Virus record (IMG/VR): IMGVR_UViG_3300049460_000196
Span: 1 to 64,000 of that record
Origin: a virus
Length of the DNA stretch: 64,000 nucleotides
Reading direction: 5' to 3' (one strand)
Shown piece after piece: positions 9,298-55,095 of the stretch; positions within the stretch are counted from its first letter, which is position 1, and every line of letters starts with the position of its first letter. The notes beneath the pieces are model-generated. The model was not told the DNA's origin. It saw only the letters and a program-made list of their open reading frames with translations, and did no database searches. The position numbers were made by a program, and so were the translations under genes.

Positions 9298-9319
9298 CCA
9301 AATGAATAAAAAGTCAAAA

Positions 9320-9351
9320 GAAAACCCGAAGATTTAGGTCTTCGGGTTTTC
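9320..9351 (-). terminator. intrinsic terminator of the TROVE/vWA gene
   Basis: AAAACCCGAAGA-TTTAGG-TCTTCGGGTTTT. Confidence 0.8.
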
Positions 9352-9367
9352 TACTATGAACAAGCTT

Positions 9368-10783
9368 TTAAGCTGCCAGCTTGTAGCGGTCAACCATCAC
9401 GGCTTCCAGCATCACGGACATTGGCGAGAAGTCCTTGGCACCCAGCACAGCTTTCAGGATGGCTGGCGAGAAACCAGATACCAGCGCAACGCCGCTGTCG
9501 TCATAGCGCGTTGGGGCGCTACCATGCGAGTTCAGGTTCCAGAACACGATGTTCGGTGCCTGGTAACCAGCTTCCGCGTACTTGGTGCGGATCATTTCCA
9601 TCGCTTGCACGGAACGGCCCTGGATGCAGTTGTTATCGAACTGCATATCCGACAGGATCAGGATGTTCTCTGGCATGTGCTCAGGTGCAACCTTCTGCGC
9701 CACCGCGATCTTCAGCACTTCCTCGAAAGCCGCCTGGATGTTGGTGTTGTACGCAACCTGCGAACCCATCTGATCCAGTTTCTGGAAGATGTCACCTTGC
9801 AGGTTGTACAGCTTAGGCACGTCAGTGAAGGTCATGAACGTGTCTTTGAACGCACCAGTGTTCTTTTCTGCCAGGTACAGACCCAGCGACATTGCCACAT
9901 TCATGCAGCTAACAGTACCGCTACCACCGGCAGGGCTACCCATCGAACCCGACACGTCAACCATCGGCAGGATAGACGCTTCACCGACGAAGTTTTCCAG
10001 GGCTTCCCACTGGGCAACCATCACCTTGCGAACGGCCTCGTCCATCGAACGACGTTCGTACGCCGTGAACGCACCTTTCAGCACATCGTATGGGTAAACG
10101 GCGCCGCTGTTGATCTTGGCTTCGCCAGTCGTCAGTGCTTCGGCGTACTTAGTGTAAGCGGCTTCAGCATTACGCTTGAACGCTTTCTTGTAGCGAGCAG
10201 CAGCCAGCGATGGCACGTGGCCGAAGTTGATGTTGTCCCAGTCTTTCGCGCACATCTGGGTTTCCACGACTTTCGTCAGGGTCACCAGAGTCTTGCGGTA
10301 GCGCTTAGGCGAGAAGCCCAGGTAGGCACGCAGCTCTTCAGCTACCTTGCCTTTACGTGGCATCCACTTTGCGCACAGGCCGTTACCAGCTTCCAGGCCA
10401 CCTTTGATCAGCTCAAAAGCGTGCTGGCGCAGGATTGGGTGCTTGACGGTCAGCAGGTCATCCCAACGACCGATTTCTGGGATCTTTTGCATGAGCTTCT
10501 GAGCCAGTGCGCTATCCTGGTTTTCCAGGTAACGCAGCACTTGCTTGAACAGCTCACGCTCGCCAGCACCACCGCGAACGTCACGCGCCCACTGCATGAT
10601 GCGCACAGCAACGTCGGCATCTTCCACGAAGGCCGATACAAACGCTGGGATCGGATCTTTACCGCGCATCGCGCCGATATGGAAGAACAGGTCAACACAC
10701 TTGTTCAGCGTGGACTTGTACGCCAGGGCGCCGTTGGTGGTGGTGGTTTCTTGCTCGTTGATTGCTTGTGCGAAAGTAGTCAT
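9368..10783 (-). CDS. TROVE/Ro60-related helical-repeat plus vWA protein (DUF2828-type)
   Basis: N-terminal TTNGA, RDVRGGAGER, GRWDDL, AKWMPR; vWA MIDAS DVSGSM, ILSDMQFD, VFWNL, SGFS. Confidence 0.88.
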   Translation of the reverse strand: MTTFAQAINEQETTTTNGALAYKSTLNKCVDLFFHIGAMRGKDPIPAFVSAFVEDADVAVRIMQWARDVRGGAGERELFKQVLRYLENQDSALAQKLMQKIPEIGRWDDLLTVKHPILRQHAFELIKGGLEAGNGLCAKWMPRKGKVAEELRAYLGFSPKRYRKTLVTLTKVVETQMCAKDWDNINFGHVPSLAAARYKKAFKRNAEAAYTKYAEALTTGEAKINSGAVYPYDVLKGAFTAYERRSMDEAVRKVMVAQWEALENFVGEASILPMVDVSGSMGSPAGGSGTVSCMNVAMSLGLYLAEKNTGAFKDTFMTFTDVPKLYNLQGDIFQKLDQMGSQVAYNTNIQAAFEEVLKIAVAQKVAPEHMPENILILSDMQFDNNCIQGRSVQAMEMIRTKYAEAGYQAPNIVFWNLNSHGSAPTRYDDSGVALVSGFSPAILKAVLGAKDFSPMSVMLEAVMVDRYKLAA

Positions 10784-10806
10784 CTTTTTGTCCTCTTGTT
10801 GTAGTT

Positions 10807-10930
10807 AACTGGATCAGTTGTGCTGAATTATTTGGTAACGTTCAGTATCGTTAGGTCCCGGAGCCACTGGGAGGTTGTAAGTCCCAGTCCTCACGGTAGC
10901 GCGTGTTTTTGAATTGCTGTATCTGATCCA
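10807..10930 (-). ncRNA. ACAGCAA-module RNA in the leader of the TROVE/vWA gene (Y-RNA-like)
   Basis: TGGATCAG-A-TACAGCAA ... CTGATCCA-GTT terminal helix enclosing two hairpins; same architecture as the 39-40 kb elements. Confidence 0.7.
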
Positions 10931-10971
10931 TCTATCTAGCGGCATCCGGGGATGTGCCAAACAGTGGTGTA

Positions 10972-11000
10972 ACTATATGGCAATGGCTTTCGCATTGCAA
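10972..11000 (-). promoter_or_regulatory. sigma70 promoter for the RNA + TROVE/vWA unit
   Basis: TTGCAA-17 bp-TATAGT. Confidence 0.7.
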
Positions 11001-11022
11001 GATGTTTTTACAACAATTTAGA

Positions 11023-11436
11023 TTATTTTTGGTATGGAAACATGTAGCGGAATTTGATGTAGTCCGCATCACGCAAGATAAGCCAGCAGTCATCTGGGTT
11101 ACCAGTTGTACGGTCAGTTGGGCGATGCTCAACAAACGGAAACTCACGCCGCATCCACGCCATAAAGGTAGAGAAGTGGGAATCGGGCATAGCTATGACG
11201 CGAATCTCCAATTCGTCAGCACAGCGAGTGAGGTCAATAACAGCCATACAATAGTTGGCATCACCCATAAATTTGAACATTGCTCGTTTGGCGGTCGTGA
11301 CCCCAGCTGTGGCATCCGCGGCCGCTCTCATACTCATGAACGTGGATTCACGAATTGCTTTTTCGTTCGCTATAAAAAATACAGCTTTGGCATCCAACGA
11401 AGGAAAACGCTGAATGTGTTCGGTCCAGATATTCAT
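11023..11436 (-). CDS. hypothetical protein
   Basis: ORF under a TTGACG..CATAAT promoter. Confidence 0.6.
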   Translation of the reverse strand: MNIWTEHIQRFPSLDAKAVFFIANEKAIRESTFMSMRAAADATAGVTTAKRAMFKFMGDANYCMAVIDLTRCADELEIRVIAMPDSHFSTFMAWMRREFPFVEHRPTDRTTGNPDDCWLILRDADYIKFRYMFPYQK

Positions 11437-30936: not shown

Positions 30937-31009
30937 TTTCCTTTATCAATTATAGGAGTTCATTATAAGGTCAAGTATGCTGATATTCAATACATACTTG
31001 ACCTTATTG

Positions 31010-39387: not shown

Positions 39388-39489
39388 AACAGAATCGTTG
39401 CCCACTAACCATTGGAGCAGTCAGAGCCGGCTTTCACCAAGCCCCGACAGGAGTCGAACCTGCGATATTTTATTTGCTGTAACGATTCT
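39388..39489 (-). ncRNA. circularly permuted tRNA-like RNA 1 with ACAGCAA module
   Basis: AGAATCGT-TACAGCAA..T-arm GCAGG-TTCGACT-CCTGT, loop-closed acceptor stem, D-like GCTCCAATGGTTAGTGG..ACGATTCT-GTT. Confidence 0.8.
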
Positions 39490-54476: not shown

Positions 54477-54539
54477 CTGCTACTCCGTGTTCGTTTATCT
54501 TGTTCCTATTATAGGCGTAGATGAACAAACAATCAAGTA

Positions 54540-54752
54540 TTAGTCACGTTTGTTTGCCAGTTCGTTCAACTGTTTGCTGAGGTCGGCGTCGGTTTCGGCG
54601 GTGATCACGCCCAGCTTAACCATGTTGTTCATGGTACCACGATACACTTCAAACTCGCGGTTATCGAACGACTCAACCATCACGTGCTCGCGACCAGTGT
54701 CGCTGTCGAAGGTGTCGTAGTTGTGTTTGATCTGCGCGTTGATGATATACAT
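54540..54752 (-). CDS. hypothetical protein
   Basis: AGGAG RBS and promoter. Confidence 0.6.
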   Translation of the reverse strand: MYIINAQIKHNYDTFDSDTGREHVMVESFDNREFEVYRGTMNNMVKLGVITAETDADLSKQLNELANKRD

Positions 54753-54817
54753 GGTCGCTCCTGCATTTGTGTAGAATCACATTATAGACGCAGATGAACA
54801 GAAAATCAAGTAATATT

Positions 54818-54901
54818 TGGTGGACCAGAGCGGAATTGAACCGCCACGACGTCGCGAACGTCTTTCCCAGTGCGGAGGACTTGTACTCACCTGAGTAGCC
54901 C
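54818..54901 (-). ncRNA. degenerate tRNA-like RNA
   Basis: GGCGG-TTCAATT-CCGCT, ACCA end, variable-arm hairpin; D and anticodon arms irregular. Confidence 0.5.
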
Positions 54902-54926
54902 AGCGAAGCACCAATACATGATGCTT

Positions 54927-55003
54927 TGGTGGACTATGGGGACTCGAACCCCCTCTCCCTGGCCCGTAATGATCAGCCTCGTGGGGCTTGTCCCACAATC
55001 TCC
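54927..55003 (-). ncRNA. degenerate tRNA-like RNA (UAC-like loop)
   Basis: GGGG-TTCGAGT-CCCC, TAGTCC-ACCA; non-standard D region. Confidence 0.5.
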
Positions 55004-55095
55004 GCCATTAGATGTAGCGGTGCTGAATCACGCTTCTGAAGCTACTCGCTTGAAGCCGATCATTACGAGCGACTGTTGCCAGTCACCCAGCTGGT

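What the first reader, a model, noticed from the sequence alone, without database searches (positions are those of the whole stretch)
10784..11000. Leader copy of the module upstream of TROVE/vWA contains an anticodon-arm-like hairpin instead of a tRNA elbow
Between the promoter and the RBS lies the module enclosing ACTGGGA-CTTACAACC-TCCCAGT (CTTACAA is a Val-UAC-like loop) and CTGAA..TTCAG. It ends about 10 nt before the RBS. This position is typical both of autoregulatory operators and of Y RNA genes next to rsr.
Basis: partly seen in the sequence, partly recalled or inferred. Interest (0 to 1): 0.7.

Follow-up and report, generated by a model that had tools for sequence, protein, structure and literature searches.

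The report
Partner-RNA handle in Ro60-like gene leader
The untranslated leader of a phage gene for a ring-shaped, Ro60-like RNA-binding protein carries a conserved copy of the short "handle" found on that protein's presumed partner RNAs, most likely so that the protein can bind its own message and limit its own synthesis, although no binding has been shown.

Summary
The element is real. On the minus strand, 10930-10810 is an 8-bp terminal helix (TGGATCAG/CTGATCCA) followed by AT-ACAGCAA. It encloses two hairpins and ends 12 nt before the Shine-Dalgarno sequence of a 471-aa DUF2828/DUF7788 gene. That gene's model folds as a Ro60 (TROVE + vWA) ring.

A module of this kind ends 9-28 nt before the start codon in 54 of 61 distinct relatives, against about 1 of 61 in shuffles. 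It also does so in a second, more distant clade, where the helix abuts the ribosome-binding site. The helix covaries strongly.

The long hairpin is genuine. Its 9-nt loop CUUACAACC is identical in the one relative that carries the same module, and its stems covary. It is not a canonical anticodon arm.

The same handle flanks YrlA-like RNAs beside a mycobacteriophage Ro-like gene, so this is a phage variant of the Ro60/Y-RNA system.

My best reading, at about 0.45, is that the leader copy is a cis site through which the protein represses its own translation. The main rival is a co-transcribed YrlB-like partner RNA that is cut off the message.

Earlier agents of this scan reported leader copies in at least 17 other genomes.

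The parts
10972..11000 (-). Sigma-70-like promoter TTGCAA-17 nt-TATAGT for the leader and gene
   Evidence: Consensus scan, 9 of 12 matches. L069 and L117 show the same layout of promoter-like hexamers, 5' hairpin and module. Inferred only: no transcript ends are known.
10932..10964 (-). 5' hairpin between the presumed transcription start and the module
   Evidence: Present in the MFE folds. L069 and L117 also have a hairpin at this place, with unrelated sequence.
10923..10930 (-). Handle helix, 5' strand TGGATCAG
   Evidence: Pairs with 10817-10810. Pair probabilities are 0.63 for the outermost pair and 0.85-0.86 for the other seven. A-U becomes G-C in L117. Aligned to the family model R1.
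10914..10920 (-). Unpaired ACAGCAA motif, 2 nt after the helix
   Evidence: Read directly. The C-GCA core of CAGCA is invariant in 44 aligned modules of relatives; the second base is A, C or U. The motif is shared with five other minus-strand modules in the window.
10858..10896 (-). Two-part hairpin (outer CCG.GAG/CUC.CGG, inner ACUGGGA/UCCCAGU) with 9-nt loop CUUACAACC (10881-10873)
   Evidence: Pair probability of the inner stem is 0.89-1.0. The loop is identical in L117, with four compensatory pair changes in the stems.
10836..10853 (-). Second cargo hairpin UAACG-AUACUGAA-CGUUA
Evidence: Present in the MFE folds. Conserved in L117 as CGGGG/CCUCG with three compensatory changes.
10807..10817 (-). 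Handle helix 3' strand CTGATCCA plus GTT tail
   Evidence: The same ..TCCA-GTT ending is seen in mycobacteriophage Douge modules and in L117; L069 has ..TCCA followed by GAA.
10781..10797 (-). Shine-Dalgarno AAGAGGA (10797-10791) and start codon ATG (10783-10781)
   Evidence: Read directly. Mean unpaired probability of the SD is 0.65. Homologs align from residue 1.
9368..10783 (-). Gene for the 471-aa Ro60-like protein (DUF2828 + DUF7788)
   Evidence: Pfam hits at E 2.5e-28 and 6.4e-43. AF2 model has pLDDT 95.2. The top 12 listed PDB fold matches are all Ro60/TROVE. The MIDAS residues D276, S278 and S280 are invariant.
9319..9352 (-). Intrinsic terminator after the gene
   Evidence: 14-bp stem followed by a T run.

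Best explanation
The 121-nt element at 10930-10810 (minus strand) is a genuine, positionally conserved member of the 'terminal helix + ACAGCAA' handle RNAs that travel with phage Ro60-like (DUF2828/DUF7788) genes. These are a phage variant of Y RNAs. It is transcribed as part of the gene's own 5' leader.

The encoded ring protein is expected to bind this handle as it binds the free-standing modules elsewhere in the genome (39-44 kb of the window). The helix ends 12 nt before the Shine-Dalgarno sequence (-3 to 18 nt in relatives), so a bound 52-kDa protein would hinder 30S loading. Synthesis of the protein would then be throttled once it exceeds its pool of partner RNAs. This is feedback by mimicry of the primary RNA ligand.

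Shown: the element, its fold, its family membership, its conserved position and the Ro60 fold of the protein.
Inferred: binding, and repression of translation.
For: 1. Position is conserved.
- A module with at least 7 bp plus C(A/C)GCA ends within 45 nt of the start codon in 54 of 61 distinct upstream regions of homologs. The figure is 1.2 of 61 in dinucleotide shuffles and 22 of 628 in control windows.
- Stem end to ATG is 9-28 nt. Stem end to SD is -3 to 18 nt, median 7.

2. An independent, more distant clade not used for the model shows the same thing.
- R1 finds leader modules in 9 loci. The helix runs straight into the SD (..AACUU|GGAGA).
- All 49 hits lie on the gene strand.

3. The helix covaries: 97% of cells are paired, 6 of 8 pairs have changes on both sides, there are 73 compensatory cells, and 0 of 500 shuffles do as well.

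4. Leader copies form a distinct subclass (Fisher tests).
- Median length is 56 nt against 117 nt for other modules.
- The T-arm motif occurs in 2/57 against 23/101 (p = 0.001).
- The CAGCA motif is altered in 17/57 against 13/101 (p = 0.012).

5. In 12 of 57 loci a near-consensus promoter fires 6-14 nt before the leader module, against 8 of 285 control positions. There the module is the very 5' end of the mRNA.

6. In this window the leader copy is the only module near the gene. The other copies lie about 29 kb away.

7. No terminator separates the module from the SD, and the SD itself is mostly unpaired. Any control must therefore come from a bound factor.

8. The protein is Ro60-like by fold. 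Thermus phage phiLo Ro60 binds small stem-bulge RNAs encoded upstream of its gene with a KD of about 17 nM (PMC12135203).
Against: - No binding or expression data exist for any member.
- In this window the helix ends 12 nt before the SD and 26 nt before the AUG, at the far end of the family's range, so steric block is less certain here.
- In many relatives the leader copy is simply the last of a tight tandem array with 8-12-nt spacers. Compact packing could explain that.
- Relatives such as RSP15, the FelixO1-like phage dune, Aeh1, nt-1 and mycobacteriophage Douge have no leader module, and some carry their modules downstream. Leader control is therefore not universal.
- In M. smegmatis the small Y RNA YrlB lies between YrlA and rsr and is processed from a precursor (PMC4201824). 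This is a direct precedent for the rival reading.
- The usual closing U·G pair is an A·G mismatch here.
- The R1 score is marginal on its own (E 0.54).
Confidence: 0.45

Rival explanations
1. The leader copy is just another partner RNA: a small YrlB-like Y RNA without a tRNA-like body. It is co-transcribed with the gene for co-expression and released by processing between the helix and the SD. It has no role in controlling translation.
For: - Tandem arrays with short conserved spacers run directly into the gene in many relatives.
- M. smegmatis YrlA and YrlB lie upstream of rsr and are processed from one precursor. D. radiodurans Y RNAs are also upstream of rsr and polycistronic (PMC4201824).
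- phiLo Yrl1 and Yrl2 lie upstream of its Ro60 gene (PMC12135203).
- In L117 the ortholog of this very module is not the last one. Another module follows it before the gene.
- Some leader copies carry full tRNA-like cargo (L072, L076).
Against: - In the distant clade the helix abuts the SD with 0-nt spacing. Release of an intact RNA would leave an mRNA that starts at its SD.
- Leader copies are systematically stripped down and more often carry an altered motif.
- Dedicated promoters fire at the leader module in 12 of 57 loci.
- No processing signal or terminator is visible here.
Confidence: 0.3
2. The leader is a protein-independent structure, for example a 5' stabiliser against RNase E or 5'-end-dependent decay, or a folding insulator. 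Its likeness to the handle would be only a relic of duplication.
For: - The leader is strongly structured (z = -3.1).
- A 5' hairpin precedes the module in the window, L069 and L117.
- Where a promoter fires at the module, the module forms the 5' terminus of the mRNA.
Against: A mere stabiliser would not keep the invariant C-GCA core, the GG/CC core of the helix and the CUG(UU) ending across clades whose proteins share only about 40% identity.
Confidence: 0.08
3. The cargo hairpin is the active part. Its conserved loop CUUACAACC, and the Y-U-NNN-A-A loops of relatives, mimic an anticodon arm. The loop would be displayed on the handle as a decoy or sensor for a tRNA-directed enzyme, such as an anticodon nuclease of a defence system or a modification enzyme.
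For: - The loop is identical in L117 while the stems covary.
- 21 of 49 distinct leader cargos hold a hairpin of at least 4 bp with a 7-nt loop matching Y-U-NNN-R-(A/C/U), against 0.7 expected in shuffles.
- Other modules carry tRNA elbows.
- The Bas63 Ro60-like gp130 counters the Ppl defence system (PMC11482910).
Against: - The loop here has 9 nt.
- L069, which has the same handle subtype, has different loops.
- ARAGORN places the equivalent hairpin of L076 as a variable arm, not an anticodon arm.
- The sequences are related, so the count is inflated.
- Whether gp130 of Bas63 itself is a DUF2828 homolog was not checked here.
Confidence: 0.1
4. The helix and motif are a chance match in an ordinary intergenic region.
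For: The R1 E-value for the whole window is only 0.54. There is no sequence-level repeat in the window.
Against: Positional conservation in 54 of 61 relatives, an orthologous module with 8 compensatory pairs in L117, and the third-best hit in 128 kb falling exactly in the leader of the cognate gene.
Confidence: 0.02

Closest known systems
Bacterial and phage Y RNAs with Ro60/Rsr: YrlA and YrlB (Rfam RF02553; Chen et al. 2014, PMC4201824)
   Same: - Small RNAs closed by a helix of their 5' and 3' ends, with a short conserved motif just after the 5' strand.
- Encoded on the same strand next to a Ro60-type ring protein, often upstream and polycistronic. YrlB lies between YrlA and rsr.
- In mycobacteriophage Douge the RNA that Rfam YrlA hits (32 bits, tRNA-like part only) is flanked by this same handle, TGGAC..ACAGCAA..GTCCA-GTA, and its two neighbouring modules end in GTCCA-GTT.
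   Different: - The motif is ACAGCAA, not GNCGAAN0-1G.
- Rfam YrlA gives no hit on the leader and no hit above its cut-off anywhere in the 113-kb record.
- The leader copy has no T or D arm.
- By sequence the protein is DUF2828/DUF7788 rather than Pfam TROVE.
- The copy sits inside an mRNA leader next to the SD.
Thermus phage phiLo Ro60 with Yrl1 and Yrl2 (PMC12135203; PDB 9KOP, 9L5Y)
   Same: - A phage Ro60-fold protein. 9KOP is the best fold match to this model.
- It binds small stem-bulge-stem RNAs encoded just upstream of its gene.
   Different: - The phiLo RNAs carry a CGAA motif and were defined as separate RNAs.
- No role in the mRNA leader or in autoregulation was proposed ('autoregul' does not occur in the text).
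Translational operators that mimic the repressor's primary RNA ligand: the E. coli thrS operator (anticodon-arm mimic next to the SD) and the ribosomal-protein operators of L1, S8 and L20 (textbook knowledge, not tested here)
   Same: - A copy of the protein's normal RNA target is placed beside the ribosome-binding site of its own mRNA.
- The copy is often a weaker or stripped-down version of the target.
   Different: - Repression is demonstrated for those systems. Here it is inferred from position and conservation only.
- The helix ends 12 nt upstream of the SD in this window.
Dictyostelium Class I RNAs (Rfam RF01414; Kjellin et al. 2021, PMC7919456)
   Same: - Same design. The Rfam consensus is a 6-bp terminal helix, then CUUACAGCAAU, a variable body, the 3' strand and UG.
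- The paper notes a conserved 3' CUGU.
- Pfam DUF2828 also occurs in eukaryotes.
   Different: - The family is reported only from dictyostelids and is bound by the RRM protein Rnp1A.
- The leader copy gets no RF01414 hit on its strand. Another window module scores 16 bits against a cut-off of 41.5.
- Common descent is not shown.

Membership tests
Phage 'helix + CAGCAA' handle RNAs that accompany DUF2828 Ro60-like genes (uncatalogued) | Terminal helix of 7-8 bp joining the 5' and 3' ends, with a GG/CC core, conserved in structure but not in sequence | tested here: met
   TGGATCAG/CTGATCCA, pair probability about 0.86. One compensatory change against L117. The family helix is 97% paired with 73 compensatory cells.
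Phage 'helix + CAGCAA' handle RNAs that accompany DUF2828 Ro60-like genes (uncatalogued) | Unpaired (A)CAGCAA 0-4 nt after the 5' strand | tested here: met
   AT-ACAGCAA at 10922-10914. The C-GCA core is invariant in A2.
Phage 'helix + CAGCAA' handle RNAs that accompany DUF2828 Ro60-like genes (uncatalogued) | Closing U·G pair and a ..CCUG(UU) 3' ending | tested here: not met
   Here the ending is ..UCCA-GUU, with A·G at the closing position (alignment). U·G is present in 33 of 43 aligned modules. The ..UCCA ending is a recurrent subtype: L117 and two Douge modules continue GUU, the middle Douge module GUA and L069 GAA.
Phage 'helix + CAGCAA' handle RNAs that accompany DUF2828 Ro60-like genes (uncatalogued) | Significant score with a covariance model built from other members | tested here: inconclusive
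   R1 gives 14.5 bits and E 0.54 over the window, rank 3, a full-length alignment with an 89-nt insert. If only the leader is counted as search space, E would be about 0.002 (my scaling).
Phage 'helix + CAGCAA' handle RNAs that accompany DUF2828 Ro60-like genes (uncatalogued) | Same strand as, and next to, a DUF2828 gene | tested here: met
   The module lies directly upstream of 9368-10783 (-). All 49 R1 hits in other loci are on the gene strand.
YrlA (Rfam RF02553) | Score at or above the gathering cut-off (69 bits) | tested here: not met
   No YrlA match at E <= 10 in 10600-11200. There is none above the cut-off in the window or in the whole record.
YrlA (Rfam RF02553) | tRNA-like T and D arms | tested here: not met
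   No tRNA or T-arm signal in the leader cargo. The cargo is two plain hairpins.
YrlA (Rfam RF02553) | GNCGAAN0-1G motif near the 5' end (PMC4201824) | tested here: not met
   The sequence at that place is ACAGCAAU.
YrlB-type small Y RNA (between YrlA and rsr; PMC4201824) | Bound by the Ro60 ortholog and released from a precursor | not testable with these tools
   No RNA run was listed for this DNA. Binding needs experiments.
Autoregulatory operator that mimics the protein's RNA ligand | The operator resembles the protein's primary RNA target | tested here: met
   It shares the helix + ACAGCAA handle with five free-standing modules of the same window.
Autoregulatory operator that mimics the protein's RNA ligand | The site overlaps or abuts the ribosome-binding region | tested here: inconclusive
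   In the window the helix ends 12 nt before the SD and 26 nt before the AUG. In relatives the distance to the SD is -3 to 18 nt, and 0 nt in the distant clade.
Autoregulatory operator that mimics the protein's RNA ligand | The protein binds the site and represses its own translation | not testable with these tools
   Needs EMSA, toeprinting and reporter assays.
Ro60 / TROVE + vWA ring proteins (for the encoded protein) | Ring of HEAT-like repeats closed by a vWA domain with a MIDAS motif | tested here: met
   The AF2 model has pLDDT 95.2 and pTM 0.93. The top 12 listed Foldseek PDB matches are all Ro60/TROVE over the full length, TM 0.41-0.64. D276, S278 and S280 are invariant.
Ro60 / TROVE + vWA ring proteins (for the encoded protein) | Match to Pfam TROVE (PF05731) by sequence | tested here: not met
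   Pfam reports only DUF2828 and DUF7788. A profile search against PDB reaches TROVE chains only at E 0.008, over the start of the vWA domain.
Dictyostelium Class I RNA (Rfam RF01414) | Score at or above the gathering cut-off (41.5 bits) | tested here: not met
   No minus-strand hit on the leader. The design resemblance rests only on the consensus shown.
tRNA anticodon arm (as a mimic) | 5-bp stem and 7-nt loop with U33 and a purine at position 37 | tested here: not met
   The stem has 7 bp (13 if extended) and the loop 9 nt, CUUACAACC. The first seven loop bases fit C-U-NNN-A-A.

The most novel reading that the evidence does not exclude
Phage Ro60-like rings use one universal handle to display interchangeable pieces of tRNA, either elbows or anticodon-arm-like hairpins, as decoys or sensors against tRNA-directed host defences. 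The copy in the protein's own mRNA leader would serve both as the anticodon-arm-type cargo carrier and as the operator that matches protein output to the RNA pool. The strictly conserved loop CUUACAACC would then be a recognition site for a host or phage factor.
Probability: 0.1. Interest if true: 0.85.

Novelty: new variant of a known kind. Interest (0 to 1): 0.55.

Why it matters
Ro60 and its Y RNAs are known from animals, bacteria and a few phages, but how the amount of protein is matched to its RNAs is not known. I found no report of a Ro60-family protein controlling its own message.

The protein family here is very large. It comprises 6204 clusters at 50% identity and 710 cultured-phage records, including FelixO1-like, T4-like, Listeria, Staphylococcus and mycobacterial phages. 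One Felixounavirus, phage dune, carries a DUF2828 homolog, and the Ro60-like gp130 of the Felixounavirus Bas63 is reported to counter a defence system (PMC11482910). I did not check that gp130 itself belongs to this family.

A handle copy placed against the ribosome-binding site in most members of two clades gives a simple experiment: protein plus leader RNA, followed by toeprinting. That experiment would at once test whether these RNAs are the protein's ligands and whether the system regulates itself.

For this window in particular, the conserved 9-nt loop offers a second, separable element to mutate.

Tried and rejected
- In-window blastn with the 217-nt leader found no other copy by sequence. 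The 'copies' share only the handle.
- Rfam at gathering and at E <= 10 gave nothing on the leader's strand. The only hit nearby is a plus-strand Class I RNA match at 11001-11096 (E 0.26), which I take as chance.
- A single-sequence AF2 model was useless (pLDDT 46). It was replaced by a model built with 100 homologs.
- phmmer against PDB gave no meaningful hit.
- A look-up for RNA sequencing runs holding this DNA listed none.
- I tried to read the handle part of the Rfam YrlA consensus through weak hits in the own genome. Only the tRNA-like part aligned, so the comparison with GNCGAAN0-1G rests on the paper's text.
- Scanning IMG/VR for the 15-mer around the conserved loop gave 26 hits. All were unrelated, mostly coding sequence.
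- The complement of the loop (GGTTGTAAG, up to 1 mismatch) gave 12 matches against 11.2 expected, so no target is evident in the window.
- I first read the cargo hairpin of L076 as a true anticodon arm of a permuted tRNA. ARAGORN on rotated cargo instead places it as a variable arm, and rotations of five other long cargos gave no tRNA call.
- Leader modules are absent upstream of the homologs in phage dune, RSP15, Aeh1, nt-1 and Douge.
- No closer relative than 68% protein identity was found in IMG/VR or in the metagenome contigs.

Full report
WHAT IS THERE. The finding lies on the minus strand, in the 239-nt gap between a 137-aa ORF (11436-11023) and a 471-aa gene (10783-9368). In transcript order the features are:
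- A sigma-70-like promoter, TTGCAA-17-TATAGT, at 11000-10972.
- A 5' hairpin at 10964-10932.
- The module, 10930-10810. It opens with TGGATCAG, then AT, then ACAGCAA. The cargo is 96 nt. It closes with CTGATCCA, followed by GTT.
- Nine more bases, then the SD AAGAGGA (10797-10791), then ATG (10783).

No terminator lies between the module and the gene. The gene ends in a strong terminator at 9352-9319.

IS IT MORE THAN CHANCE?
- The 182-nt leader folds at -46.1 kcal/mol against -34.9 ± 3.6 for shuffles (z = -3.1, 0 of 200 as good).
- In the ensemble the terminal helix has pair probability 0.85-0.86 and the long hairpin 0.89-1.0. The SD is mostly open (0.65).
- There is no sequence-level repeat of the leader in the window and no Rfam family matches it.
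- A descriptor search does find the same design (helix, then 0-2 nt, then RCAGCAA ... helix, then (G)TT) at five further minus-strand sites: 44035-43818, 40530-40384, 40376-40235, 39625-39497 and 39491-39389.

The protein has 337 relatives in IMG/VR, 710 cultured-phage records and 6204 clusters at 50% identity.
- In the 80 best IMG/VR loci (53-68% identity), 58 of 62 distinct upstream regions carry such a module ending within 45 nt of the start codon.
- Under a stricter definition the count is 54 of 61, against 1.2 of 61 in dinucleotide shuffles and 22 of 628 in control windows.
- The helix end lies 9-28 nt from the ATG and -3 to 18 nt (median 7) from the SD.
- On 44 aligned modules, none from this window, the 8-bp helix is 97% paired. 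Six pairs have changes on both sides and there are 73 compensatory cells. None of 500 shuffles reaches this.
- A covariance model built from that alignment (R1) was run over the whole window with filters off. It returns the two tRNA-like modules at 39.4-39.6 kb first and the leader copy third (10933-10805, 14.5 bits, E 0.54), aligned end to end with an 89-nt insert.

AN INDEPENDENT CLADE. I fetched loci for a representative that is only 41% identical to the window protein.
- R1 gives 49 hits there and in five cultured phages, all on the gene strand.
- In nine of the new loci a module ends right at the gene. The 3' strand ..AACUU runs directly into GGAGA, so the closing G is the first base of the SD.

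LEADER COPIES ARE A SUBCLASS (Fisher tests).
- They are short, with a median of 56 nt against 117 nt for other modules.
- They rarely carry a T-arm motif (2/57 against 23/101, p = 0.001).
- They more often have the altered motif CCGCA or CUGCA (17/57 against 13/101, p = 0.012).
- In 12 of 57 loci a near-consensus promoter ends 6-14 nt before the leader module, against 8 of 285 control positions. There the helix is the 5' end of the mRNA.

THE CARGO IN THIS WINDOW. The closest relatives are L069/L118 (68%), L117 (67%) and L001 (65%). No closer one was found.
- L117 carries the ortholog of this module: TGGATCGG-AT-ACAGCAAT ... CCGATCCA-GTT.
- RNAalifold on the pair predicts 23 pairs, 8 of them with compensatory changes.
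- These pairs cover the handle, a two-part hairpin whose 9-nt loop CUUACAACC is identical in both sequences, and a second hairpin (UAACG/CGUUA here, CGGGG/CCUCG in L117).
- In L117 this module is followed by a further, degenerate leader module.
- L069 has the same layout (promoter, hairpin, TGGATCA module) but different loops.
- The loop's complement has no above-chance partner in the window. The 15-mer around the loop occurs elsewhere only in unrelated sequence.

Across relatives, 21 of 49 distinct leader cargos hold a hairpin of at least 4 bp with a 7-nt loop of the form Y-U-NNN-R-(A/C/U), against 0.7 expected. This pattern recalls anticodon loops. However, the sequences are related, and ARAGORN on a rotated tRNA-like cargo (L076) treats that hairpin as a variable arm. 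This matches the 'V' stem-loop of YrlA (PMC4201824). So 'anticodon-arm-like' is a resemblance, not a demonstrated mimicry.

THE PROTEIN. Pfam gives DUF2828 and DUF7788. With 100 homologs AF2 reaches pLDDT 95.2. The 12 best listed PDB matches are all Ro60/TROVE rings: phiLo Ro60, Xenopus and human Ro60, and D. radiodurans Rsr. The MIDAS residues are invariant. Mycobacteriophage homologs are annotated 'Ro-like RNA binding protein'.

RELATION TO KNOWN SYSTEMS.
- In mycobacteriophage Douge three tandem modules follow the Ro-like gene and end in a terminator. All have TGGAC..ACAGCAA..GTCCA, followed by GTT in the outer two and GTA in the middle one. The middle module is the RNA that Rfam YrlA hits in its tRNA-like part. 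The handle is therefore the phage form of the Y-RNA stem.
- Chen et al. 2014 reported YrlA-like RNAs in 22 phages. They also reported that M. smegmatis YrlB lies between YrlA and rsr and is processed from a precursor.
- phiLo Ro60 binds two small RNAs encoded upstream of its gene.
- Neither paper describes a copy acting in the mRNA leader.
- A full-text search for DUF2828 gives nothing relevant.
- The Rfam consensus of Dictyostelium Class I RNAs has the same design: a 6-bp terminal helix, then CUUACAGCAAU... then UG.

MECHANISM. Shown so far are the element, its fold, its family, its conserved place against the ribosome-binding site and the Ro60 fold of the protein.

What I infer is that the protein binds the handle in its own leader and so hinders 30S binding. 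This would be feedback tuned by the pool of free partner RNAs, analogous to the thrS and ribosomal-protein operators (textbook knowledge). I put this at about 0.45.

The main rival, at about 0.3, is a co-transcribed YrlB-like partner RNA that is cut off. It has direct precedent. It is also favoured by the tandem arrays and by L117, where this module is not the last one. The two readings are not exclusive.

In this window the helix stands 12 nt from the SD, at the far end of the family's range. The case for steric repression is therefore weaker here than in relatives whose helix touches the SD.

OTHER WORK OF THIS SCAN. After I had formed this reading, a look-up showed that other agents reported leader copies of the same handle in at least 17 other genomes, with the same tentative interpretation. 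That is not independent evidence.

Noticed in passing
L081:3709-3783 and L081:3876-3938 (Escherichia phage dune, Felixounavirus): R1 finds two handle modules (AGAAGACC..CAGCAA..GGTCTGG) between annotated tRNA genes downstream of the DUF2828/vWFA gene (22 and 28 bits). Felixounaviruses have no leader copy. This may bear on the report that the Ro60-like gp130 of Bas63 counters the Ppl defence system and sits next to tRNA genes (PMC11482910). I did not check that gp130 is this gene.
   Followed up: partly
L087:4462-4722 (Mycobacterium phage Douge): Three tandem handle modules lie downstream of the Ro-like gene and end in an intrinsic terminator. Only the middle one has a tRNA-like body (Rfam YrlA, 32 bits). 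The outer two are minimal modules.
   Followed up: partly
window 39448-39488 (-) and Rfam RF01414: The Rfam consensus of Dictyostelium Class I RNAs (terminal 6-bp helix, CUUACAGCAAU, variable body, 3' strand, UG) has the same design as the phage handle. A window module scores 16 bits against a cut-off of 41.5.
   Followed up: partly
L072 and L076, leader modules just upstream of the gene start (about 1380-1500): In these two relatives the leader copy itself carries a full circularly permuted tRNA-like body (hairpin, T arm, closed acceptor, D arm) directly before the SD. ARAGORN calls a tRNA for L076 after rotation, but not for L072.
   Followed up: partly
L084:1151-1479 (Synechococcus phage BUCT-ZZ01): A cultured cyanophage with a tractable host carries three tandem modules. 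The last ends 21 nt before the ATG of its DUF2828 gene. This is a practical system for experiments.
   Followed up: no
window 3603-54809, ten sites on the minus strand (for example 11488-11459 and 9317-9288): A family of phage promoters, TTGAC-N17-TATnAT with conserved flanks, recurs before minus-strand genes (repeat families D1 and D2). The leader's own promoter, TTGCAA-17-TATAGT, is a weaker match and is not a member of that repeat family.
   Followed up: no
window 30963-31007 (-): R1 gives a weak hit (11.9 bits, E 2.1) to a helix AAGGUCAAG/UUGACCUU without a CAGCAA motif. It is probably chance.
   Followed up: no
window 54538-55017 (-): ARAGORN calls a permuted tmRNA-like gene with tag peptide ASLKCIVVP inside the tRNA-rich region. 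Rfam at gathering threshold did not report a tmRNA there.
   Followed up: no
L083:1440-1500 (Cronobacter phage S13), L085:1460-1500 (Aeromonas phage Aeh1) and L069:1430-1500: These leaders keep a handle-like 3' ending (..AACCTG or ..CACCCG followed by the SD), with or without a partner strand, but lack CAGCAA. They may be degenerate leader copies.
   Followed up: no
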